A stretch of DNA of 31,826 bases from Bulinus truncatus (GCA_021962125.1 JAGDYQ010000025.1:5913217-5945042), one strand, 5' to 3'; counted from the stretch's first letter, positions 1 through 18,478 are shown. Notes: generated from the sequence alone by a model not told the origin. Numbers and translations: made by a program.

Positions 1-345
1 CTTAGACTTGATCGGTAGGCTAGGTTATTTTTTTCGTTTCGGGCAAATCCGATTTTTTCATGATTGTATCAACTGGTATACTGTTGTATTAATTCTTTAC
101 TTTCGATTTAACGCAGAACCTAAATCGCTATTATATTATTAGATTAAAACATATACTGCAAGTTAAATAGTATAGCGCTATAGAGAGAACAACCATCACT
201 TAAATGTGGGTTGTTGTTTTTGTTCGTTCACTATCGACTATATACTACACAATAACAAATAAGACTGTCACGCAACAAAGAATAGATCTAAACTCTACAT
301 CTAACATTTTAATGAATTACAAACTTGACGCCATCCCATCTCCAG

Positions 346-479
346 ACATTACGTAGCACCAGAAACATCTTCATCCTGAACCTGTCCGTCTGTGACGTCA
401 TTATGTGTTCTGTCTGTATGCCATTCTCTCTGGTGAAGTTGACCCTCAAGAAGTGGACCATGGGACTGGTCATGTGTAG
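346..479 (+). CDS. GPCR exon (TM2 to start of TM3) of an NPY/NPF-type class-A receptor. Phase 0 start, ends with 2 extra bases before GTAAGT.
   Basis: Translation TLRSTRNIFILNLSVCDVIMCSVCMPFSLVKLTLKKWTMGLVMC(R). It matches the NPY-receptor TM2 pattern N-I-x-I-x-NL-S-x-x-D, the LPF motif and the conserved Cys at the start of TM3. A pyrimidine-rich acceptor ccatcccatctccag lies at 331-345 and a donor gtaagt at 480-485. The frame is closed upstream by TGA at 313-315. Confidence 0.7.
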
Positions 480-610
480 GTAAGTGACACTGATCTTATG
501 TACAGATAGATGACACTCCTGTAGCGGTCAAGTAGTGAACTAGGTGGCCTCGTGCTACATTGACCCCATCTACCTTTGTCCTACGTGGTGTCCTAACCAC
601 TGTACCTTGA

Positions 611-700
611 AATAGATTTGATGGGGCGTGTATTAAGTACAAATAGATTTGACAGGACGTGTATAAGTACAAATAGATTTGATAGGACGTAAATCAAATA
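611..700. repeat. Tandem repeat of about 29 bp with 3 copies (acaaatagatttgayaggacgtgtataagt).
   Basis: Direct repeat. Confidence 0.85.
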
Positions 701-1807
701 AAAATAGATTGGTTAAAAGTGCAAATTTTAAAAATGTTTAGTGCTCTGCGTCCTTATCATGTTATCTATGACGTATGTACTATAGGGCGGAGTGAAAAAA
801 ATTTTTGTTAATTTTTTATTCTAATAGCTCACAATGGTTGCCAAATAGTCAAAGTAGTTATGGCCTAAAATATCTTTTATGTAGTGTAACGTTTACCGGT
901 GCCCCAAAGACCTTCAAATTTTAAAGGATACAAACTGTAAAGCATTATAACAATTTTGAATGAAATCAACATCTCAATAGTGATATTCGTAATGTTAATG
1001 TGTAAATATGAACTGCTGAACTAAATTATGTTTATGAATTATCAATTTAACAATTTACAATATAAGTCAGGATCGTCGATTTTTTTTAAGGCAGGAGACA
1101 AATAACGTGTTAGGAAGATGGTCTTCCTCAAGTGCCTGTCACCATCTTTGCACTACGGTTTTGTTTTAATGTCAAACCAAACATGGCCATAAACCCTCAC
1201 AATATAAGTTGAAAGTTCTTGTAGCTCAATTAACTGAGACATCGTTGCAATATACAAACGGAGTATTCTGTTCGCCTTTGTCAACCAGCGTGCATGAGGC
1301 AATTTGCCAGAATTTTTTACAGAACTGCTCTGAGACAATCCAGAAATGACACCAATACTAATTATGCATAAAATAGTTGCCAACTAAAATGCTGACGGTG
1401 CATGGAACAACAAAGAACAAAATTACAGTTAAAATACTAAATGCGGGTATGACATACGATTTACTGGGCGTGTGGAGGGTGACCTTTTTTAACAGTTGAA
1501 GGTTGTTATTGTTATTTTTTGTTTAGATATGATAAATTACCACTTGTGGAATAAAAATAATGAAAAACAATTTTTAGTCATATACCTAATGTACAATTAT
1601 GTATATAGTTACATTACTTACTACTGAAAGTGATTTAACAGGTAGACAGTTTGAGGTTAGGGGTTAGAGACTCCTGTCCCCTTAGTTACATAAGGTATAC
1701 ACGCCCCTCCTCCCATAACCATGGCTGCTTTGTAATGGTGGGTGATGTAAAAAGACTAGTACATGTACTTTTAATAACCGTCTAAAAGTGAAGACAGTAT
1801 CAGTGTA

Positions 1808-2140
1808 ATGCCAACTGAAAGAAGAAATATCCCATCCTTACAGGGACCTCACAGCACAAAAACAATTGAAAGAAGAAATATCCCATCCTTTCAGGGACCT
1901 CACAGCGCAAAAACAATTGAAAGAAGAAATATCCCATCCTTACAGGGACCTCACAGCACAAAAACAATTGAAAGAAGAAATATCCCATCCTTACAGGGAC
2001 CTCACAGCACAAAAACAATTGAAAGAAGAAATATCCCATCCTTACAGGGACCTCACAGCACAAAAACAATTGAAAGAAGAAATATCCCATCCTTACAGGG
2101 ACCTCACAGCACAAAAACAATTGAAAGAAAAACTTCATGA
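1808..2140. repeat. 57-bp minisatellite with about 6 copies (unit gaaagaagaaatatcccatccttacagggacctcacagcacaaaaacaatt...).
   Basis: Perfect or near-perfect periodicity. The ORFs on both strands are repeat artefacts. Confidence 0.95.
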
Positions 2141-3424
2141 TAAATATGCAATAACGTTGATCGCGTTATTGTTTTTAGCAATTTTCATTCACTGTTGTCC
2201 TTTTACTTGAGGGTTGTCAATAATTTTGTAATTTAATAGCTTTATTTATTTTTGACTTGGAAAGTGTAACCAAAATACCGTGATTTTCGGGTAATAAATA
2301 CTCTTTTGAAGTTAAATGCCTGCCAGCTACAAAAATTAATTTTCATTTGATTGGGCCAACCAGAGTTTTCTTTTTACTTCTTTTTTACGAACAAGGAAGT
2401 TCGATGGAAATAGGAAATGAATAATAGATAGTTTATTTTTGGTTTTATTTCTAACAATATTATTTCAGTGTAAATTTTCTATCTATAATAAAAAAAATTC
2501 CATATTTTACAACAGAAATTCTTTATAAAATCACAAGTCAGAGAAACAATCTGCGTCTGTCCAGTAACGTGGGTTATCATACAAGAACATTGTTAGGTTA
2601 TCAGCAGCTGATGCAGTGGCGGATATAACGCAAGGGCGCACCTGCTGCACGCCCGGGGCTGGTGTGTGCACAAGGCTCCGCAGAAACCAGCATTACATTT
2701 GTTTCTCTACTCCCCATCATACTATTTAGTTTAAGGGGGCCCAATATCTTCTTCTGCGCCGGGAACCCCAAAAGAACCTTAATCCGAATATGAGTTTGAG
2801 TGTTTAGACTTTCCTTCATTATTGGCACATTTATTGTGAAGTGTCATTATTAAATACAACTATATCTTTACCCTGATTTCAACTGTAACTATCAAGATGA
2901 TGCTTCCAATAAATGAATTATTCTTTTTCAAATGACTTCATGGGTTGAAAGAATTCGCCAAATGTCTCTACAGTAAATCTAGCTATCAATACTACTGGGA
3001 TTCTAGTAGCAAAGCAAAGCCTTGTCTGCATCCAACTGTAGCTGATGTTTATAAGCAACATAAACACTATGGAAGACATATATAAATGTTGTCACCATTG
3101 CTCGAACTAATAGCCTACACATATATCTTTAGACATTAATATTATTATTCTATATTTTTTGTCAAATGTAACCAATCCAGTGGAACCACGCACATTGAAC
3201 GCAATTTGCTGCGGCTGTTCGTTTGTTCTGTCGATTAGCTGGATGTTCGTTTTAAGAAACACAATTTCCAACAAACTTTTATAGGAAATTACGTCTTCTT
3301 TTCTGGATAGCTCCATAATATATATAAAGGAAACATGACAGCACTGTCAAAGGGCAAAGCAAAATAGTAAAATATTTACCAAAACAGTGAAAACTATTAG
3401 CTGATGATCAGATGAGATGGAAAT

Positions 3425-3600
3425 ATAATGAGGAAAGCACACAGACACACACAGAGACACAGATAGACACGCACAGAGACATAGACAGACACACAAAGAC
3501 ACATACCAACACACACGGAGACACAGACAGACACACAAACACAGAGACACACACAGACACACACAAAAAGACACAGACAGACACTCCCAGAGACACAAAC
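3425..3600. repeat. Imperfect (CA)n/(CAGA)n purine-pyrimidine microsatellite.
   Basis: cacacagagacacagacagacacac... The ORFs on both strands here are artefacts. Confidence 0.9.
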
Positions 3601-4033
3601 ATTAAGAACAAGTGAAATGTTTCAATCCGGTTTTATTTTTTAAAGTCAGAGCTGGAATTTGTACCTTTCCAGTTAAAGCAGAAAGTGCTGACCAGATGGA
3701 ACGGACATCCCACTGACAACCCTTTTCTTGGGATCCATTTTAATTGGGTTTCACATTTCACACAGACAACTGGAATAACAATTGCAACAAGAAGACAGTA
3801 CCTTTTATTTTGTTTAACTTGAATATTCAATATTGATATGTCTTCATCTGATCAGATCTTGCCAAATTCAGTTGTTGTTTTTTTGAAGGCGATGTTTCAA
3901 TATGTGGTGCGTTTGTCATGTGGAGCGTTCGTTATGTGGAGCGTTCGTTGTGCAAGTTGTTCGTTAAGTGAGGTACACTGTTTGGTCATAAATGATCACT
4001 TATGGCAGTCCAAATATTAATTCATCATTTTAG

Positions 4034-4235
4034 GATCATCACTGCCCTGGCTACTATTGATGTTTTGGTCTCAACGCTGACCATCATTGTTATTGCCGTA
4101 GACCGCTACTCCACCATTGTCCATACGTCCACGGTAACAACACGTCATGTCGTTTCAGCACTGGTCATTATCTGGACCCTGGCCATTGTATTGTCTACGC
4201 CACTGTTTTGTTTTCATAAGATTGATACTCAGGAG
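4034..4235 (+). CDS. GPCR exon (TM3 with the DRY motif through TM4). The first base completes the split codon AG|G.
   Basis: Translation (R)IITALATIDVLVSTLTIIVIAVDRYSTIVHTSTVTTRHVVSALVIIWTLAIVLSTPLFCFHKIDTQE. AVDRY corresponds to the E/DRY motif and the Trp in TM4 is present. Acceptor ttttag at 4028-4033 and donor gtaaat at 4236. The phase matches the upstream exon. Confidence 0.8.
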
Positions 4236-4377
4236 GTAAATAAATCTACAGATGCTGCAATGTTAGTTTTATGTGGAAAAGATGAATAATTTCTTAAACA
4301 TATTCTTTTTCTTAAAACAAAAGGCAGCAAGAACTTTTCCGTGTAACATTTGTATTATCTAAATTGATTTAAGTGTT

Positions 4378-4680
4378 GTTAGTTATAATCAAAATTCATT
4401 TGAGTGATGGTTTTTATTATCTTAATTCACTTGAGTGATTGTTTTATTATCTAAATTAACTTTGGTGATAGTATTCAATGTTTCTATATTAAAATCCAAC
4501 AAGATCATCTCTATCTTGTATTACCATGGTTCTATAGCAAGTGTAAATTATACTATATAAATCAAAATAATGCTTTAGTGTCCATCTTTATACTTCGACC
4601 TGTGGTCATTATCCTCATGATTTACTATACTTAGACCTGTGGTCATTATTCTCATGACTTACTATACTTAGATCTGGGTT
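4378..4680. repeat. Two short tandem arrays (roughly a 33-bp unit with 3 copies at 4378-4470 and a 43-bp unit with 2.5 copies at 4584-4680).
   Basis: ttattatctaaattcacttgagtgatggtt... and atacttagacctgtggtcattattctcatgacttact... Confidence 0.8.
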
Positions 4681-4950
4681 TTTATTTATTAACTTTTAAA
4701 AAAAAAATAGGAATAACGAAAACATTAAATATAGAACAATGCGTGACAAGAAGACAGAACAGGGTCAATCGACATCAGTAGAGACAGGACGAAGACAATC
4801 GATAAATGTATTTTTTATTTAGAATAAAACTTACAAATGTTTTAAAACTTAATACTTATATAAAACATTTTATTAAAAGTCGCTCATTTTTTTACGTATT
4901 TCGAAACGGAAATATTAAACTCAAAAAAAAATTAGATGTTTAGCATGCTT

Positions 4951-5075
4951 AAAGCTATCCTCAAATCAAAGCGAAGCGTTCCGCTGTGCTATTTCTCACG
5001 TGAGATTTTTCAAAGTGCGAAAAACCCTCGCTACACCTAAGCGAAGCGAACGTAGGCGTCAGCCGACCGGGTATA
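4951..5075. mobile_element. Solo left arm (about 125 bp) of the same MITE family, roughly 90% identical to 6329-6450.
   Basis: Direct comparison of aagctatcctcaaatcaaagcgaagcgttccgctgtgctatttctcacgtgag... with the 6329 copy. Confidence 0.6.
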
Positions 5076-5299
5076 GGGGAAGTTGGGGTAATAGCGGCCA
5101 CATTTTTATTGTCTAGTTTATTATTGTGACTGAAAGCATTATCAATGACAAACTGTGTTATACAAATAGCCCTATGGAACTATTACTATATACCAATAAC
5201 AGTTGGTTATGACTAGTCTACAACTGATGAAAAAAAATTTTTTTTGAAAAAAAATTTTGGCCTAATTTACCCCTATGCTCGGGGTAATTTCGTCATAGG

Positions 5300-5382
5300 T
5301 GGCCAGAATTTCTCCAATCTGAAAACACACATATGTAACATGGCCAGAATTTCTCCAATCTGAAAACACACATATGTAACAC
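5300..5382. repeat. 41-bp direct tandem duplication (ggccagaatttctccaatctgaaaacacacatatgtaaca, 2 copies).
   Basis: Direct repeat read from the sequence. Confidence 0.9.
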
Positions 5383-6315
5383 AAACAAATATCAGTAGGA
5401 AGTTTTACTTTTTCATTTTATTTGTCATGTTCTAAAATTTTATGAATCAGAATACTAAAAAATCTAATGGCAGTATACAGTTTGTCAAGGGCCCCTTTCG
5501 GGGTCCATGCGGTCGTTGTCTAAGAGCATGATCACCTACCGAGTTCTGGCCAGTATTTGTATTTGTCCCAGCCACGTGGTTCCACAGGACGCACACAACA
5601 CAACGAGAAAAGAGTACTCGACAAATGTAAATACAATACAACAGCAAATATTTATTTACATCAAAACAAGAATGAACATCAGCATGTCCTAAAAAGGGCA
5701 GTAGCTTTATCGGCTACTACACATAAATAGAAAAGTAAGCATTAAGACAGAATGGCCTTTACATGGGGCGGGTAGTTCTAAAAAGAACTCAGAACTGAGG
5801 TGGTCGAACATCTAAGTCCTGCCACGCTAACAGCCTGTTTCCCACGCCCCGGCAAAGAAACAGGGGAGTGCCTAGATTTCATTAAAACCAACTCAAAGAA
5901 TGTGACACAGTTGTATTATAAAAAAAATTGTTTCAGTCACAAAGTGAAGTTTTTTTGTTTTCTGTCTTTACCAGCACAGTTTGTGTGAGCCCACTACTGG
6001 CATACCTCGCATTTAATCCAGGGCTCTGAAGAAACTGACCATAATTCAGTTGGCCGAATTTACCCCTTAAACTCTGGCTTTTATTACCCCGTAACAAGGA
6101 GAGTGACATTTAGCGATTATTACGAAATAACTGGACAATATTGCCAATGAGCGATAACACAGACCTCATATGTATAAGATTTAATTTTTAATGCTACTTT
6201 ACCAACTCAAAATCTCGCGCCGTATAAAATAAAACTCTTCATTTTATGAAACAATAAAAAATACTCACTTTGCCCAAATTAGGATTTTGCTTTGTAAACA
6301 AGAAAAACTTTAATT

Positions 6316-7175
6316 TAATCTGATATAAAGCTTTCCTCTAACCAAAGCGAAGCGTACCGCTGTGCTATTTCTCACGTGAGATTTTTCAAAGCGCGAAAAT
6401 CCCTCGCTACACCTAAGCGAAGCGAACGTAGGCGTCAGCCGACCGGATATAATGATTTTTTTAATTTTCTTTTTGTTTATTTGAAGACGTCGGCAGACAT
6501 TTTCTTCTTATGATATATTTTCTACAGTTATGGTATTTTATAAGTAAAAAGTGAAAAAAAACACTTACTGTTTGGTATAATCTGATATAATTCAAGTTGC
6601 TATATATAAATGTAAGTCTTATTTGTTAATTTTAAGACATTTATATCAATTTTAACCTTGATTTTCATTTGAGTCGATGTTTCTAGGCAGCCATTTTGGA
6701 TTGTTTACACTCGCGAAACGCGAAAAAACTCTGAAAGAAGCGATGCCGCGAAATTTCTCTGCACCGCCGCGGAAATTCTACGCGGTTTGAGCATCTCCAT
6801 ATAAATACATTGCCGAGAAATAGGGGCGAATTTCGCGAGCTACCTAGATACGCGAAATTCGCTTTGGTTAGAGGAAAGCTTAATTCAAGTTGCTATATAT
6901 AAATGTAAGTCTTATTTGTTAATTTTAAGACATCTATATCAATTTTAACCTTGATTTTCATTTGAGTCGATGTTTCTAGGCAGCCATTTTGGATTGTTTA
7001 CACTCGCGAAACGCGAAAATACTCTGAAAGAAGCGATGCCGCGAAATTTCTCTGCACCGCCGCGGAAATTCTACGCGGTTTGAGCATCTCCATATAAATA
7101 CATTGCCGAGAAATAGGGGCGAATTTCGCGAGCTACCTAGATACGCGAAATTCGCTTTGGTTAGAGGAGAGCTTA
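6316..7175. mobile_element. MITE-like element with 22-bp TIRs (aagctttcctctaaccaaagcg). The ~293 bp right-hand unit is tandemly duplicated (6583-6882 and 6883-7175).
   Basis: The left end at 6329-6350 is the reverse complement of cgctttggttagaggaaagctt at 6861-6882 and again at 7154-7175 (this copy reads ...gagagctt). The element lies inside the first long GPCR intron. Confidence 0.6.
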
Positions 7176-7290
7176 ATTAAAACGCTTCCATTAATCAAAT
7201 TAAGTTGTTTTTTGTTTTTTTTGTTGTTTCTTTGTTCTTTGTTTTGCTTGTTTTTAAATACTGCTAGAACAAAATGGATTGTCTGTGCAG

Positions 7291-7439
7291 TATACTCATT
7301 ACTTGTTGCTTTTTTCGTTCACATGCCAGTTGTTCCAACACACCTTTGTTCAACAATGTATTGACCATTGGCCAGACGAGTTATTCCGAGAGATTTACAC
7401 AACAGCGGTAATGCTGATACAGTATTTAGCACCAACATT
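7291..7439 (+). CDS. GPCR exon (ECL2 with the conserved Cys, plus the N-terminal half of TM5). The 5' boundary is uncertain: an in-frame alternative acceptor exists at ...catgccag|ttg around 7326.
   Basis: Translation YTHYLLLFSFTCQLFQHTFVQQCIDHWPDELFREIYTTAVMLIQYLAPT. The stretch QQCIDHWPDE..YTTAVMLIQYLAP aligns with vertebrate NPY1R YVCFDQFPSD..YTTLLLVLQYFGP. Acceptor ctgtgcag at 7283-7290 and donor gtaagt at 7440. Confidence 0.75.
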
Positions 7440-7859
7440 GTAAGTTGATGATACACAGATTGAGAATGAAAGGTTTATCATACCAGTAATATCACATAAT
7501 AAAACCATTCTTAAGCTGTAAAGATGAAAATGTTATGCGTATTATTTTATCAGCTTACTACTTCTTATCTAAAATTAAAAGATTATCATCCTGTACGTAG
7601 TATTTAACATGTGTTAAATATCGTAAAATGTCATTTGTGCCATTGATTAATGGTGTTGTCAAAACCTTATAAATTTAAACGTAAGCACATTCGATTATCT
7701 AAAAAGTTTATAATGACGTCATTTTTATAAACAAACTCTAAACGCCAGCAGTGTCAGATGTCTCTATTATATACAATGGATAGTCGTCGTTTCAAATTTT
7801 ATAGATACATGTAACGGATTTTACCAGTCGAATGATATCAAGCAAAGAGACAAAACATG

Positions 7860-8045
7860 GCTAGCCTTAGGCCGATTTGACCGATTGCTCCAAATGGGGC
7901 ACATCGCCTGGCAGGGGCCCCGCTAATGATATTTAGCATATCACTATCAATCATGTTGTTGTAAACAACAATTAGCAGAGGGGGGGCCTCGCAAGCATCC
8001 GTTAAATTGGGCCCCCGCAATTAGAAAGGCCGGCCCTGCCTTTAG
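7860..8045. repeat. GC-rich nested imperfect palindrome (ggcaggggccccgctaat ... attagcagagggggggcc ... gggcccccgcaattagaaaggccggccctgcc).
   Basis: Inverted complementarity is visible in the sequence. It could be a hairpin or a degenerate MITE. Confidence 0.4.
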
Positions 8046-8622
8046 CACACATACTGAATTTTAATTAAGTAGAAGGCTTTAAACTTACAAAACCTATTGA
8101 GTAAAGATTGAAAAGAGATACTTATATCTTATTTACAAGTCATGTCACACTACCGTGTAGATAGATATAAAACACATTCACAGAGCACGTAATGCCATGC
8201 TACCAAGTAGAGAGACATTATTTATATTTACACTCAATAACGGAATGAATTATATCCCATTATTAAACACAACGTCGACTTACAATTATCAAAACTGAAT
8301 ATATGATAACAGTGAATCATCTGTTTAAGAAAGAACATTTAGAGATATAAAATAAATGGTAAAGTACTTTTAATGTAATTTAATAGACAATACAAGCTCA
8401 ACACTGATCTATTACTAATAAATATTTTAAAATGAACAATTAAAAGTACATGAATATAAATCATAACAATTATTAGATACACAGAAACACACGCTTTTTC
8501 CGTGGATATATAATACATTTTCTAAAGACACTAGACACCGGACTTAACGATCATTTTTTCTCCCTTTTTTTTAAATGCCAAACCGGCTTCAAGACAATTT
8601 ATCTATTTTTTTCATCTGCTAG

Positions 8623-8836
8623 TTTTATCTCGTTTCTTCACGCGAGAATCTGCAAGTTCTTACAATATCGTCTGGAAGAACGGCCAGGAAATGATACACA
8701 GATCCAGACAAAGGCAAAGGAAGACCTAAAGAGACACAGACGTAACATGGTCTTACTGACCGCCATGGCGCTAGTGTTCTCTGTCACCTGGCTTCCGCTT
8801 ACACTATTAAATATTACAGCAGATTTAGGGCATGAG
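8623..8836 (+). CDS. GPCR exon (end of TM5, ICL3 and TM6).
   Basis: Translation (F)FISFLHARICKFLQYRLEERPGNDTQIQTKAKEDLKRHRRNMVLLTAMALVFSVTWLPLTLLNITADLGHE. The motif F-x-x-x-WLP-x-x-x-x-N is the class-A TM6 CWxP equivalent and closely resembles NPY1R [32 protein letters not shown]. Acceptor tctgctag at 8615-8622 and donor gtgagt at 8837. Confidence 0.85.
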
Positions 8837-8869
8837 GTGAGTATAAACTCTATATAAAAGCTGATCTAA

Positions 8870-9200
8870 ACGTCCGATAATAGTTCTAAAAATAGATGAT
8901 TTACGATACAAGGTAATAGTTCTATAAAACATGATTTAAGATACCAGCTAATAGTTCTATAAAATATATGATATGATACCAGGTAACAGTTCTATATAAT
9001 AGATGATCTAAGATACCAGCTAATAGTTCTATAAAATATATGATAAGATACCAGGTAACAGTTCTATATAATAGATGATCTAAGATACCAGGTAACAGTT
9101 CTATATAATAGATGATCTAAGATACCAGGTAACAGTTCTATATAATAGATGATCTAAGATACCAGGTAACAGTTCTATATTATAGATGATCTAAGACACG
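8870..9200. repeat. 37-bp minisatellite (...ataccaggtaacagttctatataatagatgatctaag...) with about 8 copies, starting about 35 bp after the donor of GPCR exon 4.
   Basis: Tandem periodicity. Confidence 0.9.
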
Positions 9201-10098
9201 ATGAAATTTGATCTATGACTGGTTCTCAAACTTTTCAATTCTAGACCCACTAAGAAATCGTTTTTCAGTTTTGGCGGCCCGCCCGTGAAGAAAGAATAAA
9301 GAAATGTCCAGTACAGAAATTGTACACATTTTTCGCTGCCCACCTCAAATTAACTTGCGAGCCACCAGCGAATCGCGATCCACAATTACAAAACCACTGT
9401 ACCTATGATTTTAAAAAAGTGAATGTTAGCTCTATATAATAGTTCACCTTTGACATGGGGTGATGTCAAATAATATATGCCTTGTCATCTCATTTTCATC
9501 AGATTAAAGACTTGGGATAAATCATTATTGATTTGTTTATTACTAAGGCTGTTTATTTAGTGCCACTAACGTGAGATTAATACAACTATTTTAAGTTTGG
9601 TTCTTTTCTAGAAGAGTTTTAATAATAGGTGTTACTATAAATAGATCTGATCAAGTTAATAATTATTACCACACATCAGAACCACGAAGGAGGACTATGA
9701 CATGAACTGTCAACACATTCTAGAGTCCAGTCACTGATGTCAAACTACATGAAGACAGAGTCCCAGTCTTGGCTAAGTTAGCAATAAAATATGTAGCATC
9801 TCCTGGAACAAAGGTTTCTAGTCAACCTGTCAATGTCTGGGTTTGTCAATATTAAAAGAACATCACCTTAACAGACACATCAGAATAATTTAGTTTTTTT
9901 CAACTTCTGAATATATATTATTTAATAGATATGGTCAATGATAAACCAGTATCGACGATGAGGTTATAAGATGCCATTTTGTGTGTATTAGAGCTGTATC
10001 GATGATCCAGTTTAAAAAATGTTATATTATTTTTTTTATAAAACTGTACTAATGATCAAATTTTAGTTTCATTGGTCAGCTGTTCATATATAAACTGT

Positions 10099-10102
<4 letters not shown>

Positions 10103-10172
<70 letters not shown>
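10103..10172. repeat. (TA)n microsatellite, about 34 units.
   Basis: Perfect dinucleotide run. Confidence 0.98.
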
Positions 10173-10175
<3 letters not shown>

Positions 10176-10996
10176 TTGTATATCTTTAAACAAATATTAA
10201 TAATAGATTTGTGTAAGTCTATTTTAAACAATAATGAAACTACTAGATGATGTAGGTATCTACTAGAACAAGTTGTTTGAGGGTGTATATTCGTACAAAA
10301 TTGGTTTTAATTTTTAAAACAATAAAAAAAAAATTGAAAGCTTCAACGAATTAAATTTTAAAAGCTAGCGAATAATGATAAAGAAAAACTGACTTTCAGA
10401 AATATCGTGATCTTAAGTCACGGTTTGAATTACATTCAAATAATGTTCTCATTTAGAGACACCATGTTGAAATAGAATTATATTAGCCGCGTCATTAGAT
10501 TGTGTTAAACTTGTTTTAATAACCTTAAAACAACAGCCAAATGGACGCTCAAAATAAACAAGAGTTCTTGACGACAAAATCTGTGCCAATGGGCGAGCAC
10601 GTTTCATTAGTTCAATACAGAACAGCCGTAGAAAATTTCACAATAACAGAAAACTTCAATTAATCTAAAAATGGGATAGGATAGAAAATATTAGCCTACA
10701 ATGGCTGCATTAACAAGAATCTTCACTGAAAACTAACAACTCCTACTCATGGGAAAACGATTTTTTTTTCCTTTCTAACGTCGACTCCATTAATCACCTT
10801 TCTTTCTCCCACACACTTAATTCCTTAGGGATTTTTTTTACCTCTTTTTTTTTTAACATGCCATATGCTCAATTTACATCTATAGAATTAACAATAGGAG
10901 TTTTAATTGCGATTGGTAAAATAAAACCTTTAAAATAAGCCTCTTATCTATTATATTAATCTTATGTAATGTGTGAATTAAAAGAATTACGTGCAA

Positions 10997-11110
10997 AGTA
11001 ATATTCTCGTTGTGTGTACAGTACACTTACGCTATTCTCTGTAATGTTCTCGTTGTGTGTACACATACGCTATACTCTGTAATGTTCTCGTTGTGTGTAC
11101 ACATACGTCA
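10997..11110. repeat. Tandem repeat of about 39 bp with 3 copies (gtaatgttctcgttgtgtgtacacatacgctatactct).
   Basis: Direct repeat. Confidence 0.85.
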
Positions 11111-11448
11111 TTTTATGTAATTCTACAGAGCCTTTCAAAGTTCGCATTTTTCTGGACTTTAAAAATAAATAGCACAGTCCTTTCTACTTTCAGAATTCTT
11201 CTATTTTCTTAATTCAACTTATTTAATATTGTTTTAGCTCAAATGTTTCTACGCTCAATTTATAACCTTTGCATCCTGAGGAAAATCAAGTGGTTTCAAT
11301 TGGTTAGAGAATCTAGTGTCTTTATCTCAGAATGGTCCCAATTAAAGGATACAAAAGTGCAATTAATTTGTTCCAAAAAAAAATAACACAACAGTCATGG
11401 AACATGGTTCAATATTTCATTGTGGATGCTGCAAAAATTAGTTGAAAA

Positions 11449-12553
11449 TAAAAGAGTAACAATTGTTGCTGTAATATTGATCTGTGTAACAATTGTTGCT
11501 GTAATATTGAACTATGTAACACTTGTTGCTGTAATATTGAACTGTGAAACAATTGTTGCTGTAATGTTTAACTTTGTAACAATTGTTGCTGTAATACTGA
11601 GCTATTTAACAATTTTTGCTGTAATATTGAACTATACTGTAATATTAAACTATGTAACAATTGTTGCTGTAATATTGAACTGTGTAACCATTGTTGCTGT
11701 AATATTGAGCTGTGTAATAATTGTTGCTGTAATATTGAACTATGTAACAATTGTTGCTGTAATATTGAACTATGTAACAATTGTTGCTGTAATATTGAAC
11801 TATGTAACAATTGTTGCTGTAATATTGAACTGTGTAACAATGGTTGCTGTAATATTGAACTGCCTGACAATTGTTGCTGTAATATTGAACTATTTAACAA
11901 TTGTTGCTGTAATATTGAACTATGTAACAATTGTTGCTGTAATATTGAACTATGTAACAATTGTTGCTGTAATATTGAACTATGTAACAATTGTTGCTGT
12001 AATATTGAACTATGTAACAATTGTTGCTGTAATATTGAACTATGTAACAATTGTTGCTGTAATATTGAACTATGTAACAATTGTTGCTGTAATATTGAAC
12101 TATGTAACAATTGTTGCTGTAATATTGAACTATGTAACAATTGTTGCTGTAATATTGAACTATGTAACAATTGTTGCTGTAATATTGAACTATGTAACAA
12201 TTGTTGCTGTAATATTGAACTATGTAACAATTGTTGCTGTAATATTGAACTATGTAACAATTGTTGCTGTAATATTGAACTATGTAACAATTGTTGCTGT
12301 AATATTGAACTATGTAACAATTGTTGCTGTAATATTGAACTATGTAACAATTGTTGCTGTAATATTGAACTATGTAACAATTGTTGCTGTAATATTGAAC
12401 TATGTAACAATTGTTGCTGTAATATTGAACTATGTAACAATTGTTGCTGTAATATTGAACTATGTAACAATTGTTGCTGTAATATTGAACTATGTAACAA
12501 TTGTTGCTGTAATATTGAACTATGTAACAATTGTTGCTGTAATATTGAACTAT
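11449..12553. repeat. 30-bp satellite (ctatgtaacaattgttgctgtaatattgaa) of about 1.1 kb with roughly 37 copies, inside a GPCR intron.
   Basis: Highly homogeneous central copies with diverged edges. It is open in six frames, which yields the spurious 382-, 320- and 244-aa ORFs. Confidence 0.95.
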
Positions 12554-13136
12554 TGTTGTGGTTTTTAATCTACTCAGGTTAATAAATTGTTTCAATCTAT
12601 TTTTTAAATCTTCATACAATAGGAACAAACACTGTATTAATTAACGGCCTACGTTCATGTCGTATGAGATCTCTGGTTATTTCTACTCAGTTAATGTGCT
12701 GACAGCATATAGGGGCTACGTCACAGATCATTTTCTGATAACATGAAATAAATTAATTTAAAAAAAAAATATCTTGATAGAAAAGTAAATAATATTTACA
12801 GAAAAAACAAAATTATGAAAATAAAAAAAATCATAGATAGCATGCTGATATTATAAACAGTTGGCAGTGGCCATGACAGATATGTCTCATGTGCGGTCTT
12901 CGAAGTACGCGGGGTCTAGGACGAGTGATTCGAGAGCTAAGTCAGGGACGGTCGCCCCAGATGCCACACCCTAAGGCAAGTACTGGACTCATGAGAGAGC
13001 TAAAGATTAGTAGAGGTAGTATGTGTCTCTGAGGTCCACGCCCGCCCCATCCATATATCCACTGGTACACCAAACATTTCCCATTCTTGTTATTGTCACT
13101 AATTGTCAAGTTTATTTCTTTTCGCCCGCCATTAAT

Positions 13137-13335
13137 GTACACATCTCACCATACTTTGACCTACTTTATGTACACATCTCACCTTATTTTGACCTACTTT
13201 ATGTACACATCTCACCTTATTTTGACCTACTTTATGTACACATCTCACCGTATTTTGACCTACGTTATGTACACATCTCACCGTATTTTGACCTACTTTA
13301 TGTACACATCTCACCTTATTTTGACCTACTTTAGT
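13137..13335. repeat. 33-bp minisatellite (tacacatctcaccttattttgacctactttatg) with about 6 copies, ending about 80 bp upstream of the acceptor of the final GPCR exon.
   Basis: Tandem periodicity. The 103-aa and 84-aa ORFs here are artefacts. Confidence 0.9.
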
Positions 13336-13416
13336 AAATGATCTTTACTGTATTTAAGTGTTAGAATTATAACGTTCTTCATCTTGATTAATAGATATAT
13401 TTTTTTTATATCACAG

Positions 13417-14142
13417 GTTTTCCAAGAAAGTCAGTACAATTTGCTCCATGCTGTAAGCCTGCTGTTAGCTATGTCATCATCTGTAGCCAACCCTGTCATG
13501 TATGGTTGGTTCAATACCAACTTTAGGAAAGCATTTTGTGAGTTGCTCGGTTTCCAGGAGGTTGTTAGCGGAAACTTAAAATTTTCTAGCAACGACAGAC
13601 ATCATAAAAAATATTCAAGCTTAAGGAACCACCAGGAATACAATCAACTGTCCAGACCGCCAGTCAATTTTGACACCCAACTACCGCGGTTCCATTCCTC
13701 CCCAGTTTTAAGAATGCGCACTGGCAGGCATAGTTTGAATGACTTGTCAATGACTGACCGGAAACAGTTTTCTTTAGATAAATGTATGAAATGTTCACAC
13801 AGTCTTCATGACTTAAAACATTACAGATATAAAGAAGAAACATCATTACTGGAATACCAGCAAAATGCACTAGCTAAAGAAATCAGGTTGAAAATGACAG
13901 AGAGAAACCCTCTAGTGGTACACGGCCATGATGGTGTGTCTATAGGCCATCCTTATGGAGTGGAGTCCCTGCACAGACGAGATTGTTATATGGCTCATCA
14001 TGAATCTAGTTTAGCGATTTGTTCCCCGGATGACAAGACCGTCAGTCTTCATCTGCTCAATGTGGTGGTGGAAGTGTCCCCGGAGACCCGCTCCACCCAC
14101 CGGGCGCACAGCTCCAGCGATTTAGATACGGACTTGAAATAA
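13417..14142 (+). CDS. GPCR terminal exon: TM7 with NPxxY, helix 8 and a long C-terminal tail, ending at TAA 14140-14142.
   Basis: Translation VFQESQYNLLHAVSLLLAMSSSVANPVMYGWFNTNFRKAFCELL... NPVMYGWFNTNFRKAF aligns with NPY1R NPIFYGFLNKNFQRDL. Acceptor tatcacag at 13409-13416. The phase is continuous with the exon ending at 8836. This is a continuous 242-codon ORF. Confidence 0.85.
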   Translation, partial: VFQESQYNLLHAVSLLLAMSSSVANPVMYGWFNTNFRKAFCELLGFQEVVSGNLKFSSNDRHHKKYSSLRNHQEYNQLSRPPVNFDTQLPRFHSSPVLRMRTGRHSLNDLSMTDRKQFSLDKCMKCSHSLHDLKHYRYKEETSLLEYQQNALAKEIRLKMTERNPLVVHGHDGVSIGHPYGVESLHRRDCYMAHHESSLAICSPDDKTVSLHLLNVVVEVSPETRSTHRAHSSSDLDTDLK

Positions 14143-14149
14143 ATTCTCA

Positions 14150-14290
14150 CAGGAGGGTGGAATCGAATACAAAGTGTTTTGTCTGTGTAAGTAAGGAAAA
14201 CAGTGTGTGATAAGGGCAGAATCGAATACTTGATTTTTTTTTCTGTGTAAGGAGGGTGAAATCGAATACTTGACGCTTTGTCTGTATAAA
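14150..14290. repeat. Three copies of a roughly 45-bp motif (ggagggtgaaatcgaatac...gtctgtgtaag), located in the presumed GPCR 3'UTR immediately after the stop codon.
   Basis: Direct repeats beginning 10 bp after TAA at 14140-14142. Confidence 0.8.
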
Positions 14291-16667
14291 ACGTGTTTTC
14301 TACAAAATTATGCCATAAGCTAAAAAAGAAAATAGGTGAACGTCCAAAAACAGAGTTGCACTAAAACCTTTATGTTTTGATTTATAAATAGTTTTCCTTT
14401 ACTTACAGTATCGGTAATCGTTTTTAATAGAAGATAACACTGTAACAAAATACAAACATCGACTTCAAGTTGTTCTTACTGGCCTTTTTAAGTTATACAA
14501 ATAATAAGACTGTTAAACCTCACGACATATATTTTAGTTGCTCGGTGTTTGACGAGATAGATCGTGGACAGATTTCTCTTTATTGCTTTAATACGCACAT
14601 TGTGTGTGATTCAACGTGAATGTTTGAATTCGCCTTTTTTGTTGTACAAAGTAAATGTTAAACTCACAATGTTGTTTATTTATCACCTCGTCAACATGTT
14701 CATTAAACACAATTATCTACACCATTTTGTTTTGTTTATAATTTCAGTGTATATTTCTATTTAATATGTTATTCTTACTTGTGTTTTGAGAACATAACAC
14801 CTAAAGCCGCTCTTAAGGATTGCTAATATACGGAGCCACAGCTTAAGTGATCGAGGGGAGGGGGGGGGGAAGGACCATATTTGTGACTTTTATACTGTTA
14901 CCAAACATGACTAGCATGACTTTAAAAAAGTTCAGAAAGCGCCCTCTGTTGTAAAAGAAAAATTTATTCGGGCCAAAAATTTACAAGTGGCATCACAGAC
15001 AGCGGTTTGTTTGTCAAGGATCTTAAATGTTACTTTGTACCAGTCACACCCCCACCCCCTTCCCCAAGTGTAACTTTGCCGAGGGCTCCCAGATGTTACG
15101 CTCCCGGGCCTCCATGATGTGAGATCGATCCTGTAAGCATGTAAACTATCATCTACCCACGCATCATACCATAAAAGAAATATTGTATCTTCTTATCAGA
15201 CATATTCAAGTAACTTATGTAAACTTTACCTTTACACTTACGTTGTCCCTATAGATTAGACAATTTATTTTACTTGTACAAAAGGTGAAGTCTTGTGATA
15301 ATGCAAGCCATAGCCCACTGACAACAAAACGTTCTTTGTTTAATGGGATTTTATAAAAATAAAAAAAATAATCTTTATAACCTCTTTTGATGTGATGTCA
15401 TCATTATTTAAATCTGTCAACACTGTTTATTGGAGTATTATTAAAAAAAATGTAGTTCAAGTAGAATTAAGATACCCACCTCTTGGATATTGGAAACACT
15501 TTGTGACCTTTTGTAATTTAATGTAGTCTAGTGTTTATTTCTACTCTAATTGTGTCTGTGTCAATAATGTGTGTGTGTCTGTGTTTGTGAGCATTTGTAT
15601 GTAAAGGTCACCTAAGCAGCATGCGTCCAGTCTATAGCCAGAAAACGTAATATTAGGCCATAAACCAGGAGTAACCAAATGCAGTTCATAGAATTCTTCG
15701 ATGACTTTTGTGCGCCTCCCAATATGGCGGTTATTTTAACCTACTTTTAATGACTGTTGCTGGGTAAATTTTGATAAAAATGCTAGAGTCGAGCTCTTTA
15801 AAGTATTTCTAACTACATAAACCCGGGTCGGCTCTCAACATCCAATCCTGCTATGTACCGTAAAATAAAGGGGCCGCTATGTAAACTTTTAATCGCAAAT
15901 TCCCTTGGGTATATTGGCATAAATCATTTCAATTTTTCTAATCTTTTGATTACTTCTAGTAAATATTTTAACATAAAGCATTTGATAAAATGAAACATAA
16001 GAAATCAATGTATAAATCAAGGGATCGAAAAGTAGATTTCTTTCAAGTTAACTCTAAGTGTCATGACCTAACCTCTCAACTTGACTATTATCTGGCCACA
16101 CCCTTTCATACAATAAATGGAATGCACATGTCTTTGTTTCTGCATCAGCCAATATTTACAACTCGTTATAAAACCCAGCTGCCATCTGTGTGTGTGGAAA
16201 CAAATGGCGATTGTGACATCAACTCTTTCACTACCTATAAAGTTAGATCCAGACCGAGGCTTATCTCTGGGCAGACGATGATTTAGGGCTCTACGGAGGT
16301 CGACTTTATTTTTTTTTATAACATTGTACCCAACGATGTAGGCAACTAGACCTAGTCACGCGATCCGTGGGTGTAGTCTGTTGATGTCAAAATGTTTTGG
16401 TTTTTTTTTTATTATTATTAACAACTTGTGATGTCAATATCAAACCGAGTGTGTGAATCCAACAACACAAACTGTACCACTGTACTGCAAGGTTCTCTGA
16501 ACTGAACGACTTTCTATATTCTTTTTTAACTTGATTGACCTTATTTTTTTAAAAGATTTCTTGTCAATCTAGTTATTACTTTAGTTAAAGTACACAGTGA
16601 AACCAGGCACATTAGCGAGGCTAGGGTACAAAACTAGCTGCAAATATCGATTATTCGCGAATATGGA

Positions 16668-17425
16668 GTGAGACTCACTACAATACGTAGTTCTAGACAT
16701 GGTGTGGCGCCAGACTCACTACAATACGTAGTTCTAGAAATGGTGTGGCGTCAGACTCACTACAATACGTAGTTCTAGACATGGTGTGGCGCCAGACTCA
16801 CTACAATACGTAGTTCTAGAAATGGTGTGGCGTCAGACTCACTACAATACGTAGTTCTAGACATGGTGTGGCGCCAGACTCACTACAATACGTAGTTCTA
16901 GACATGGTGTGGCGCCAGACTCACTACAATACGTAGTTCTAGACATGGTGTGGCGCCAGACTCACTACAATACGTAGTTCTCGACATGGTGTGGCGCCAG
17001 ACTCACTACAATACGTAGTTCTCGACATGGTGTGACGCCAGACTCACTATAATACGTAGTTCTAGAAATGGTGTGGCGCCAGACTCACTACAATACGTAG
17101 TTCTAGAAATGGTGTGGCGCCAGGCTCACTACAATACGTAGTTCTAGAAATGAAGTGGCGCCAGACTCACTACAGTACGTAGTTCTAGAAATGAAGTGGC
17201 GCCAGACTCACTACAATAGAAATGGTGTGGCGCCAGACTCACTACAATACGTAGTTCTAGAAATGAAGTGGCGCCAGACTCACTACAATACGTAGTTCTA
17301 GAAATTGTGTGGCGCCAGACTCACTACAATACGTAGTTCTAGAAATGAAGTGGCGCCAGACTCACTACAGTACGTAGTTCTAGAAATGAAGTGGCGCCAG
17401 ACTCACTACAGTACGTAGTTCTAGA
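16668..17425. repeat. 41-bp satellite (agactcactacaatacgtagttctagacatggtgtggcgcc) with about 18 copies.
   Basis: Direct tandem periodicity with the variants agacatgg and agaaatgaag. Confidence 0.95.
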
Positions 17426-17961
17426 CAAGTTCCTTTAAAAAAAAACGGTTCATAAAACAGGAATATGGTTTGTTTTTACGTTAATGATACGGACATGCTC
17501 AAAAAAAATACAACAACACGCAAATACTTTATCCCCTTAGTGTTTTATTTTTAGTTACTTTTGTCCCGCCGTGTTTACATCCACTGACAATAAATTTTAT
17601 GATACTTTAATTTAGCAGTATTTGAATGACTTACGAACATTGAGCTATGGTAGCATTGCCTACTTAGTGTATTTATGATGCTATACCAAGAATGATGTCA
17701 GGAATGGTGGGGCTTTTGTTGATGCGGGTCAAGGGAGATAAACAAGTAAGCCAAAAATGCAGAAAAATCTTTTCTTCACATGTCATCGAAGATATGAAGG
17801 CCAGGAGCGGATAAAAAGAGGGATCACGAGCTCAGCAGTACATATTAAATCTCTATAAATTACAATTACGGTTTGGCGCTCAGAAGTCAGGGCCGTTAAA
17901 TTCGCCTCTGATTAAAGCTGCTGTAAAATATTTACTTAATATATTACTGATATTTATAAAC

Positions 17962-18400
17962 TGAAATGTATTCTAATATATTGTAATGTATTAAAATGTA
18001 ATATTATGTATTATTATGTATTATTTTGTATTATTATATATTCTAATGTATTTTAATATAATGTGAAATATAATGTAATATAATGTAATATAATGTATTC
18101 TAATGTAATATAATGTAAAATATAATGTATTCTAATATAATATATTGTATTATAATGTAAAATATAATGTATTATAATGTAATATAATGTAAAATATATT
18201 GTATTATTATGTAATACAATGTATTATAATGTATTTTAATGTAATATAATGTATTCTAATGTAATATATTGTATTTTTATGTAATATATTGTATTTTAAT
18301 GTAATATATTGTATTATAATGTAATATAATGTATTATAATGTAATATAATGTATTATAATGTAATATATTGTATTATAATGTATTCTAATGCTACTTGTC
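17962..18400. repeat. AT-rich 10-bp-period simple repeat (tgtaatataa / tgtattataa)n.
   Basis: Visible periodicity. Confidence 0.85.
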
Positions 18401-18478
18401 ATGTTATATGTCCATCAGTGCTGCTGCCAGATAATATTTGGGACATTGATTATCTCCATGAACTGGTGAACTTTGATC

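What the first reader, a model, noticed from the sequence alone, without database searches (positions are those of the whole stretch)
346..14142. Five-exon NPY/NPF-type neuropeptide receptor gene, truncated at its 5' end by the window
TM2 to TM7 can be stitched across five exons with fully consistent splice phases (2→1, 0→0, 2→1, 0→0). The diagnostic class-A motifs (NLS..D, DRY, the ECL2 Cys, YTT..QY..P in TM5, WLP in TM6, NPxxY in TM7) align well with vertebrate NPY1R. The TM1 exon is missing and must lie upstream of position 1. Vertebrate Y receptors are largely intronless in the coding region, so a receptor of this type with introns exceeding 3-4 kb is informative about lophotrochozoan gene structure and about which ligand (NPF, sNPF, luqin or RYamide type) it serves.
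Basis: partly seen in the sequence, partly recalled or inferred. Interest (0 to 1): 0.55.

Follow-up and report, generated by a model that had tools for sequence, protein, structure and literature searches.

The report
Snail NPY/NPF-family receptor gene, 5' truncated
The window holds the last five coding exons of an intact, strongly conserved snail gene for a peptide receptor of the neuropeptide Y/F family; the gene itself is ordinary and already predicted in related snails, but its introns seem to be a gastropod novelty and its ligand is unknown.

Summary
Five + strand exons (346-479, 4034-4235, 7330-7439, 8623-8836, 13417-14142) have canonical AG/GT sites. Their phases are 2, 0, 2, 0, and they join into one open frame.

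It matches Pfam 7tm_1 (E 1.5e-41, profile 15-260 of 260, so TM1 is missing). Its best solved-structure matches are human NPY2R and NPY1R.

It is the ortholog of Biomphalaria glabrata XP_013087079.2 (91% identity in the core) and Aplysia XP_005089627.1. Both have the same five intron positions, plus a separate TM1 exon that lies upstream of this window. Window-to-Biomphalaria DNA similarity is confined to the exons, and dN/dS is about 0.02.

A published tree places the Aplysia ortholog among NPY/NPF-type receptors, and my tree places the window gene there. Neither puts it with sNPF/PrRP types, and the published tree also excludes luqin types. No member of this mollusc subclade has a known ligand.

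Two extras:
- Bivalve, abalone, limpet, octopus and nemertean relatives are single-exon genes, so the introns look like gastropod gains.
- The receptor keeps D6.59 and N6.55 but lacks Q3.32 and H7.39, two residues that bind the peptide's C-terminal amide in NPY receptors.

It is a new member of a known kind, of modest interest.

The parts
1..345 (+). 3' end of the upstream intron. The TM1 exon is not in the window.
   Evidence: The acceptor cag| lies at 343-345. tblastn with the Biomphalaria N-terminus (aa 1-65) finds nothing here.
346..479 (+). Coding exon: end of ICL1, TM2 (NLSVCD, D2.50), ECL1 and C3.25. It ends 2 nt into the Arg codon.
   Evidence: It is 86% nt identical to the Biomphalaria exon. 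Biomphalaria and Aplysia have the same boundary, KK|T/E in phase 0.
480..4033 (+). Intron of 3554 bp (gtaagt...ttttag), holding 51-bp and CA-rich tandem arrays.
   Evidence: It has no similarity to the Biomphalaria intron.
4034..4235 (+). Coding exon: TM3 (A3.32, DRY), ICL2, TM4 and the start of ECL2. It ends in phase 0.
4236..7329 (+). Intron of 3094 bp. Its position (ECL2, phase 0) is shared with the caenogastropod Babylonia.
7330..7439 (+). Coding exon: ECL2 Cys (QQCIDHWP) and the first half of TM5 (Q5.46, Y5.47, P5.50). It ends 2 nt into a codon.
7440..8622 (+). Intron of 1183 bp that interrupts TM5.
8623..8836 (+). Coding exon: end of TM5, ICL3, TM6 (TWLP, N6.55, D6.59) and ECL3. It ends in phase 0.
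8837..13416 (+). Intron of 4580 bp. It holds a 1.1-kb array of 30-bp repeats (11456-12553), 37/72-bp repeats (8849-9196) and 33-bp repeats (13135-13333).
13417..14142 (+). Last coding exon: TM7 (NPVMY), helix 8, a C-terminal tail of about 195 aa, and the stop TAA at 14140-14142.
14014..14087 (+). Conserved motif near the C-terminus (ICSPDDKTVSLHLLNVVVEVSPET). It is the only part of the tail that aligns with Biomphalaria at the DNA level.
   Evidence: 81% nt identity over 74 nt.

Best explanation
Window 346-14142 (+ strand) carries coding exons 2-6 of a functional gene for a class A (rhodopsin-like) peptide receptor. The source is a heterobranch, probably hygrophilan, snail.

The gene is the ortholog of Biomphalaria glabrata XP_013087079.2 and Aplysia californica XP_005089627.1 ('A.cal_NPYR2'). 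It belongs to a mollusc subclade of the protostome NPY/NPF-receptor supergroup.

How it works:
- Transcription runs left to right.
- Four introns inside the window (3.6, 3.1, 1.2 and 4.6 kb) and at least one upstream intron are spliced out at canonical GT-AG sites.
- The window-encoded part (461 aa) supplies TM2 to TM7, helix 8 and a long tail.
- The TM1 exon lies beyond the 5' edge.

Inferred mechanism: the receptor binds a neuropeptide with a C-terminal Arg-Phe/Tyr-amide. It does so through the conserved acidic and polar pair D6.59/N6.55 and the Q5.46/W6.48 pocket. It signals through a heterotrimeric G protein via DRY and NPxxY.

The most likely ligand is an NPF-family peptide (NPF or its lophotrochozoan paralog NKY). 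This is not shown. The receptor lacks two of the three residues that hold the peptide's C-terminal amide in vertebrate Y receptors (A3.32 and L7.39 in place of Q and H).

The introns are most simply explained as gains in the gastropod lineage from a single-exon ancestor.
For: Gene model and function:
- The frame is open across five exons with canonical splice sites.
- 7tm_1 scores E 1.5e-41 over profile positions 15-260.
- Identity to Biomphalaria is 91% in the core and 68% overall at 100% coverage, including a conserved C-terminal motif.
- Biomphalaria and Aplysia have identical intron positions and phases.
- DNA conservation is restricted to the exons.
- pN is 0.049 against pS 0.71, giving dN/dS of about 0.02.

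Family:
- NPY2R (1.5e-42) and NPY1R (5e-38) rank above PrRPR (1e-34) and NPFFR2 (2e-33).
- A neighbour-joining bootstrap tree gives the NPF-receptor supergroup 91-93% support. It includes the Rhodnius long-NPF receptor, Platynereis GPCR62 and Capitella ELT88377, and excludes the NPY1R-, NPY2/7R- and PrRPR-like groups.
- Published trees file the Aplysia ortholog as NPY/NPF-R.

Binding pocket:
- D2.50, C3.25, DRY, Q5.46, W6.48, N6.55, D6.59 and NPxxY are all present.
- D6.59 and N/Q6.55 contact R33/R35 of NPY in the Y1, Y2 and Y4 receptor structures (Tang et al. 2022, PMC9067930).

Introns:
- The coding sequence is one uninterrupted exon in Mytilus, Dreissena, Haliotis rubra, Lottia (partial model), Octopus and Lineus relatives.
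- Kim et al. 2021 report that all four abalone NPFR and NPFR-like genes are intronless.
- Babylonia has introns at mostly different sites.
Against: - No RNA evidence from the source species was available.
- TM1 and the start codon are not in the window, so intactness of the whole gene is inferred from the orthologs.
- No member of this subclade has been deorphanised in the literature I could search.
- The amide-binding triad T2.61/Q3.32/H7.39, described as highly conserved in NPY receptors, reads S/A/L here. This argues against a canonical NPY/NPF binding mode.
- In abalone only Hdh-NPFR, of four NPFR-related receptors, responded to NPF. I could not show that any of those four belongs to this subclade.
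- Support is weak for monophyly of the mollusc subclade with the intronless bivalve genes (59%) and for its pairing with insect NPFR (49%). The trees are distance-based, not maximum-likelihood.
Confidence: 0.8

Rival explanations
1. It is this snail's cognate NPF receptor in the strict sense: it is activated by the 36-40 aa NPF peptide, like Lymnaea GPR105, abalone Hdh-NPFR or insect NPFR.
For: - It sits in the NPF-receptor supergroup, grouped weakly (49%) with the clade that holds the Rhodnius long-NPF receptor.
- D6.59, N6.55 and Q5.46 are conserved.
- NCBI names bivalve orthologs 'neuropeptide F receptor-like'.
Against: - Each mollusc also has a separate GPCR62-group 'NPF receptor-like' gene.
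- The deorphanised GPR105/Hdh-NPFR type is listed apart from A.cal_NPYR2 in Kim et al.'s Table S2.
- GPR105 never appeared among the hits to the window protein, although Lymnaea's own ortholog P0004 did.
- Q3.32 and H7.39 are lost. Q3.32A and H7.39A mutations impaired Y-receptor signalling 6- to 404-fold, with the single exception of H306A in Y1R.
Confidence: 0.3
2. It is an sNPF/PrRP-type or a luqin/RYamide-type receptor rather than an NPY/NPF-type one.
For: - PrRPR and NPFF receptors are also strong matches, at 1e-34 and 2e-33.
- NCBI names one paralog in the sister clade 'prolactin-releasing peptide receptor-like' (Babylonia P0158).
Against: - NPY2R and NPY1R score better.
- The PrRPR-type and PrRPR/sNPFR-like representatives fall outside the 91-93% supergroup that holds the window gene.
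- Published trees with explicit sNPF, PrRP and luqin references file the Aplysia ortholog under NPY/NPF-R.
Confidence: 0.05
3. The exons are a decaying pseudogene or a chance assembly of ORF fragments.
For: The 5' exon and start codon are not visible in the window, and there are no expression data.
Against: - There is no stop or frameshift in 1386 nt.
- All eight splice sites are canonical.
- dN/dS is about 0.02 with synonymous sites near saturation.
- Conservation is limited to the exons.
Confidence: 0.03
4. On gene structure: the introns are ancestral, and the single-exon relatives arose by repeated retroposition or intron loss.
For: - Retrogene replacement is common among class A GPCRs (general knowledge).
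- One intron (ECL2, phase 0) is shared by Babylonia and the heterobranchs, so it is at least as old as Apogastropoda.
- Arthropod NPFR genes have introns whose positions I could not check.
Against: - This needs independent complete loss in bivalves, abalone, limpet, octopus and nemertean lineages, and in all four abalone genes.
- It also needs an ancestor carrying the union of about nine positions, because the caenogastropod and heterobranch sets are largely different.
Confidence: 0.25

Closest known systems
Biomphalaria glabrata XP_013087079.2, 'neuropeptide Y receptor type 2-like' (P0001; locus L001)
   Same: - It is the ortholog: 91% identity over TM2 to helix 8 and 68% over all 461 aa.
- It has the same five intron positions and phases.
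- It has the same C-terminal motif, HLLNVVVEVSPET.
   Different: - It comes from a different species: exon DNA is only 75-86% identical, synonymous sites are near saturation, and the introns cannot be aligned.
- The Biomphalaria gene spans 38.7 kb and its TM1 exon is visible. Here TM1 lies outside the window.
Aplysia californica XP_005089627.1 ('A.cal_NPYR2' in Kim et al. 2021; 'NPY/NPF-R' in Yanez-Guerra et al. 2020)
   Same: - It is the ortholog, 75% identical in the core.
- It shares the intron positions that could be resolved: ICL1 and TM3 with exact phase, and ECL2, TM5 and ECL3 by HSP boundaries.
- It has A3.32, L7.39, N6.55 and D6.59.
   Different: Its C-terminal tail is unrelated in sequence and Ser-rich, and it lacks the HLLNVVVEV motif. 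It has never been deorphanised, as far as my searches show.
Human NPY2R and NPY1R (solved structures 7YON, 7X9B, 7VGX and others)
   Same: - They are the best solved-structure matches, at E 1.5e-42 and 5e-38.
- They share C3.25, DRY, Q5.46, W6.48, N/Q6.55, D6.59 and NPxxY.
   Different: - Identity is only about 30%.
- The human receptors have T2.61/Q3.32/H7.39, which bind the C-terminal amide; the window protein has S/A/L.
- Human Y2 and Y5 coding regions are intronless and Y1 has one intron in the TM5 region. This gene has at least five.
Lymnaea stagnalis GPR105 (CAA57620.1) and Haliotis Hdh-NPFR, the deorphanised mollusc NPF receptors
   Same: They belong to the same broad NPY/NPF receptor superfamily in published trees.
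   Different: - They are a different gene lineage. Lymnaea has its own ortholog of the window gene (P0004, CAL1528023.1, 84% core identity), and GPR105 was not among the hits to the window protein.
- Kim et al. list GPR105 apart from A.cal_NPYR2.
- Hdh-NPFR is intronless.
- I could not obtain these sequences, so this paralogy is inferred and not shown in a tree of my own.
Lophotrochozoan GPCR62 group (Platynereis GPCR62; Aplysia 'NPF receptor-like' P0370; Haliotis NPFR-like-1)
   Same: It is in the same protostome NPF-receptor supergroup (91%). Some members also have A3.32.
   Different: - It is a separate paralog present alongside the window-type gene in the same species (Aplysia, Physella, Lymnaea, Babylonia, Dreissena, Patella).
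- It groups at 97% with chelicerate and termite 'NPF receptors', not with the window clade.
- It has a DRF motif and keeps H7.39.

Membership tests
Class A (rhodopsin-like) GPCR, Pfam PF00001 7tm_1 | Match to the 7tm_1 profile above the gathering score | tested here: met
   E 1.5e-41, 143 bits against a cut-off of 30.5, covering residues 2-249 and profile positions 15-260 of 260.
Class A (rhodopsin-like) GPCR, Pfam PF00001 7tm_1 | Microswitch motifs: D2.50, D/ERY at 3.49-3.51, W6.48-x-P6.50 and NPxxY in TM7; Cys3.25 and the ECL2 Cys for the disulfide | tested here: met
   NLSVCD, DRY, TWLP, NPVMY, C44 and the Cys of QQCIDHWP, read from the sequence and the alignment.
Class A (rhodopsin-like) GPCR, Pfam PF00001 7tm_1 | Seven transmembrane helices in one polypeptide | tested here: inconclusive
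   Only TM2 to TM7 are encoded in the window. TM1 is on a separate exon in the Biomphalaria and Aplysia orthologs and is absent from window 1-345.
NPY/NPF-type receptor family | Phylogenetic placement with NPY/NPF receptors, not with sNPF/PrRP, luqin/RYamide or tachykinin receptors | tested here: met
   The gene falls in a supergroup with 91-93% neighbour-joining bootstrap support that holds the Rhodnius long-NPFR, Platynereis GPCR62 and Capitella ELT88377 and excludes PrRPR-like and PrRPR/sNPFR-like representatives. The Aplysia ortholog is filed as NPY/NPF-R in published maximum-likelihood trees. Luqin and tachykinin references were not in my own tree.
NPY/NPF-type receptor family | D6.59 and N/Q6.55, which contact the Arg residues of the RxRF/Y-amide C-terminus | tested here: met
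   TM6 reads WLPLTLLNITAD, giving N6.55 and D6.59. Their role is described in Tang et al. 2022.
NPY/NPF-type receptor family | The polar triad T2.61 / Q3.32 / H7.39 that binds the peptide's C-terminal amide | tested here: not met
   The window has S2.61, A3.32 and L7.39. A3.32 occurs in the heterobranchs and most caenogastropods of this clade (Batillaria has S). L7.39 occurs throughout the mollusc clade. Q and H are kept in the Rhodnius-type arthropod NPFR representatives, NPY2/7R and the annelid relatives.
NPY/NPF-type receptor family | Activation by an NPY/NPF peptide | not testable with these tools
   This needs heterologous expression. I found no published deorphanisation of this subclade.
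Ortholog group of Aplysia XP_005089627.1 / Biomphalaria XP_013087079.2 | Highest similarity, and nesting inside the heterobranch clade | tested here: met
   Window plus Biomphalaria has 100% bootstrap support, the heterobranch clade 100% and Apogastropoda 100%. Core identity is 91%.
Ortholog group of Aplysia XP_005089627.1 / Biomphalaria XP_013087079.2 | Shared intron positions and phases | tested here: met
   The positions are ICL1 KK| (phase 0), TM3 C-R (phase 2), ECL2 E|L (phase 0), TM5 PT|x (phase 2) and ECL3 HE|V (phase 0), in all three species where they could be resolved.
sNPF/PrRP-type receptor | Clustering with PrRPR/sNPFR sequences | tested here: not met
   Representatives whose best PDB match is PrRPR (P0246, P0207) lie outside the supergroup that holds the window gene.

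The most novel reading that the evidence does not exclude
This apogastropod receptor lineage may have changed ligand and gene structure together. After losing the amide-binding Q3.32 and H7.39, it may serve as the still-unidentified endogenous receptor for a lophotrochozoan-specific long RF/RY-amide peptide such as NKY. Thiel et al. 2021 raise, conditionally, the question of NKY's true receptor. Its five coding-region introns, and the different set in caenogastropods, would then be a rare documented burst of lineage-specific intron gain in an otherwise single-exon metazoan GPCR family.
Probability: 0.15. Interest if true: 0.6.

Novelty: new member of a known kind. Interest (0 to 1): 0.3.

Why it matters
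The locus is an unremarkable ortholog of a receptor already predicted in Biomphalaria, Aplysia and Physella and already used in published NPY/NPF receptor trees.

Its value is comparative, in three ways:
- It gives a well-supported exon model for a mollusc NPFR-like subfamily with no known ligand.
- This subfamily is intron-bearing only in caenogastropods and heterobranchs, while all sampled outgroups are single-exon genes. That makes it a tractable case for dating intron gain or loss in molluscs.
- Two ligand-contact residues conserved from insects to humans are replaced here. That is a concrete, testable lead on why some mollusc NPFR-like receptors might not respond to NPF.

Tried and rejected
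- **Second homolog search wasted.** I included a galanin receptor in the query alignment, and vertebrate GALR1 sequences flooded the output.
- The representative search turned it away, so I used the Biomphalaria ortholog instead.
- **GPR105 and Hdh-NPFR not placed.** The GPCR62-group search did not return either by name. Primer-derived termini from Kim et al. identified only Hdh-NPFR-like-1 (it matches Haliotis asinina P0373). They did not match Haliotis rubra P0031. I therefore dropped the idea that abalone members of the window's clade had been tested with NPF.
- **Proto-splice-site signatures.** I looked for them at the homologous positions of the intronless orthologs and found no consistent pattern.
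- **A second GPCR gene, alternative exons or dispersed repeats in the window.** None were found.
- **Downstream ORFs.** Pfam scans of ORFs between 15990 and 24228 gave no hits.
- **tRNA and Rfam scans.** Both found nothing.
- **Patella and Littorina loci.** These were not on record.
- **Structure prediction.** I did not run it. The window's own stitched product cannot be submitted, and a generic 7TM model would not discriminate between subfamilies.

Full report
**What is in the sequence**

The window is AT-rich (about 27-43% GC) and full of minisatellites, as expected of a eukaryotic genome. On the + strand, five ORF fragments carry GPCR motifs.

Reading the boundaries base by base gives these exons: 346-479, 4034-4235, 7330-7439, 8623-8836 and 13417-14142. 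Each is preceded by a pyrimidine-rich tract and AG, and each of the first four is followed by GTAAGT, GTAAAT, GTAAGT or GTGAGT. The phases are 2, 0, 2, 0.

The joined sequence is 1386 nt with a single stop at its end, so the product is 461 aa. That is a miscount and the only factual error in the observation. The four introns are 3554, 3094, 1183 and 4580 bp.

**Is it real?**

Four lines of evidence say yes.

- *Family match.* The product matches Pfam 7tm_1 at E 1.5e-41, over profile positions 15-260 of 260. That is everything except TM1.
- *Homologs.* The top hit is Biomphalaria glabrata XP_013087079.2, 'neuropeptide Y receptor type 2-like' (E 2e-183, 68% identity over 100% of the query). Physella, Aplysia, Lymnaea, Elysia and Plakobranchus follow. 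Over TM2 to helix 8, identity to Biomphalaria is 91%.
- *Gene structure.* I fetched the Biomphalaria and Aplysia loci and mapped their proteins back. Both split at the same residues and phases as the window. Both also have one more exon upstream (aa 1-65 and 1-76: N-terminus plus TM1) that ends KK| in phase 0. Nothing in window 1-345 encodes that exon.
- *Conservation pattern.* blastn of the window against the 45-kb Biomphalaria locus aligns only the five exons (75-86% identity). The alignment ends fall within a few bases of my splice sites. One further 74-nt block, in the tail, also aligns. Over 266 core codons, pN is 0.049 and pS is 0.71, so dN/dS is about 0.02.

Together these stand in for the RNA-seq test that I could not run. 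They exclude a pseudogene or a chance assembly.

**Which receptor family?**

Against solved structures, the ranking is:

| Receptor | E-value |
|---|---|
| NPY2R | 1.5e-42 |
| NPY1R | 5e-38 |
| PrRPR | 1e-34 |
| NPFFR2 | 2e-33 |

Galanin, orexin and QRFP receptors come next.

I searched 1.84 billion cluster representatives with the Biomphalaria ortholog. I then built bootstrapped neighbour-joining trees on about 260 aligned core positions.

Anchors came from two sources:
- Source names: Rhodnius long-NPF receptor, Platynereis GPCR62, Capitella ELT88377, lamprey NPY2/7R, and Octopus, chiton, Lineus and Owenia sequences.
- PDB matches: P0252 is NPY1R-type, P0246 is PrRPR-type, and P0207 is PrRPR/sNPFR-like.

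The window gene falls inside a protostome NPF-receptor supergroup (91-93% support) that excludes all of those outgroups.

Inside the supergroup there are two lineages:
- *Lineage I* (97% support): chelicerate and termite 'NPF receptors' plus a lophotrochozoan GPCR62 group. In this group every sampled mollusc has a separate 'NPF receptor-like' gene.
- *Lineage II* (only 49% support): the Rhodnius-type NPFR clade plus a lophotrochozoan 'NPFR-like' assemblage. The assemblage includes the window's mollusc clade, a sister mollusc clade (Haliotis, Lottia, Gigantopelta, pectinids and a second Babylonia gene), Octopus, chiton, nemertean and annelid genes.

The literature agrees. The Aplysia ortholog XP_005089627.1 is 'NPY/NPF-R' in Yanez-Guerra et al. 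2020, which has separate sNPF/PrRP-R and luqin-R categories. It is 'A.cal_NPYR2' in Kim et al. 2021. So 'NPY/NPF-type' is supported, and sNPF or luqin/RYamide type is not.

**Which ligand?**

This is not settled.

The deorphanised mollusc NPF receptors are Lymnaea GPR105 and abalone Hdh-NPFR. They appear to be a different lineage, for three reasons:
- Lymnaea has its own ortholog of the window gene (P0004).
- GPR105 never appeared among the hits to the window protein.
- Kim et al. list GPR105 apart from A.cal_NPYR2.

I could not obtain those sequences to show this in my own tree.

In abalone, only Hdh-NPFR of four related receptors responded to NPF. From the cloning primers, Hdh-NPFR-like-1 is the GPCR62-group gene. 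I could not match NPFR-like-2 or -3 to the window's clade. No claim can therefore be made that this clade was tested.

The binding-pocket residues give a mixed picture. D6.59 and N6.55 contact R33/R35 of NPY in the Y1, Y2 and Y4 receptor structures. They are conserved here, as are Q5.46 and W6.48. The triad that holds the C-terminal amide is T2.61/Q3.32/H7.39. Tang et al. 2022 describe it as highly conserved throughout NPY receptor evolution, and alanine mutants of these residues are generally markedly impaired. In the window protein it reads S/A/L.

A3.32 is confined to the heterobranch and caenogastropod members of this clade (Batillaria has S), with a convergent case in part of the GPCR62 group. 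L7.39 is found throughout the mollusc clade. The Rhodnius-type arthropod NPFR representatives, NPY2/7R and the annelid relatives keep Q and H.

My best inference is a receptor for an RF/RY-amide peptide of the NPF family. Its mode of C-terminus recognition is altered, and the ligand is possibly not NPF itself.

**Gene structure**

The relatives below encode the whole protein in one uninterrupted exon:

| Species | Protein | Length |
|---|---|---|
| Mytilus | P0016 | 365 aa |
| Dreissena | P0023 | 457 aa |
| Haliotis rubra | P0031 | 403 aa |
| Lottia | P0028 | 292 aa (partial) |
| Octopus | P0165 | 344 aa |
| Lineus | P0156 | 434 aa |

Kim et al. report the same for all four abalone NPFR and NPFR-like genes.

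The heterobranch genes (window, Biomphalaria, Aplysia) share five introns, in ICL1, the start of TM3, ECL2, TM5 and ECL3.

The caenogastropod Babylonia gene spans 92 kb. Its introns are in the N-terminus, ICL2, ECL2, ICL3 and the tail. Only the ECL2 intron (phase 0, same alignment column) is shared with the heterobranchs. Nucella shares the ICL2 and ICL3 introns with Babylonia.

The simplest reading has three steps:
- The ancestor was a single-exon gene.
- One intron was gained before the caenogastropod-heterobranch split.
- Further gains followed separately in each lineage.

The alternative is an intron-rich ancestor with repeated complete loss. It needs many more events but is not excluded. 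Support for joining the bivalve genes to the gastropod clade is also only 59%.

**Rest of the window**

Beyond the stop codon (14143-31826) I found none of the following:
- a second GPCR;
- a Pfam domain in any of the seven longest of the 11 ORFs of at least 70 aa;
- a tRNA or Rfam match.

**Verdict**

The locus is a new species' copy of a known, annotated but orphan receptor gene. Interest is modest. The points worth passing on are the intron distribution and the replaced amide-contact residues.

Noticed in passing
window 4055-4057 (A3.32) and 13453-13455 (L7.39): Two of the three residues that bind the peptide's C-terminal amide in NPY receptors (Q3.32, H7.39) are replaced by Ala and Leu. 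The third, T2.61, is Ser. Ala3.32 is seen only in heterobranch and most caenogastropod orthologs, and convergently in part of the Platynereis GPCR62 group.
   Followed up: partly
window 14014-14087: A short motif near the C-terminus (ICSPDDKTVSLHLLNVVVEVSPET) is conserved with Biomphalaria at DNA and protein level, inside an otherwise divergent tail of about 195 aa. A weaker version (MRVVVEISP) is in Physella, and Aplysia has none. Its function is unknown.
   Followed up: partly
L003, L004, L006, L007, L008, L009 versus window, L001, L002, L005, L010: Relatives in bivalves, abalone, limpet, octopus and a nemertean are single-exon genes. Heterobranch and caenogastropod orthologs have five introns each, at largely different positions, and span up to 92 kb. 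This suggests lineage-specific intron gain.
   Followed up: partly
window 11456-12553: A 1.1-kb minisatellite of about 36 copies of a 30-bp unit (93-97% matches) sits in the last intron. It creates long spurious ORFs on both strands (382, 320 and 244 aa).
   Followed up: no
window 1812-2129, 6588-7178, 8849-9196, 13135-13333, 16671-17425, 17965-18391, 20023-20404, 29446-29688: There are many further tandem arrays, with units of 10-293 bp, in the introns and downstream of the gene. One (33 bp x 6) ends only about 80 bp before the last exon's acceptor.
   Followed up: no
window 18963-19759, minus strand: Two adjacent ORFs (155 aa and 82 aa), separated by a short gap, have no Pfam match. They could be a decayed mobile-element ORF or exons of a neighbouring gene.
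   Followed up: partly
window 21001-22000: This is the most GC-rich kilobase of the window (43% against about 30% nearby). It has overlapping minus-strand ORFs (92 and 75 aa) without Pfam matches.
   Followed up: no
L001 10869-12884: The Biomphalaria ortholog carries a called gene with a Mutator-type transposase domain (621 aa) inside its large TM2-TM3 intron. No counterpart is seen in the window's equivalent intron.
   Followed up: no
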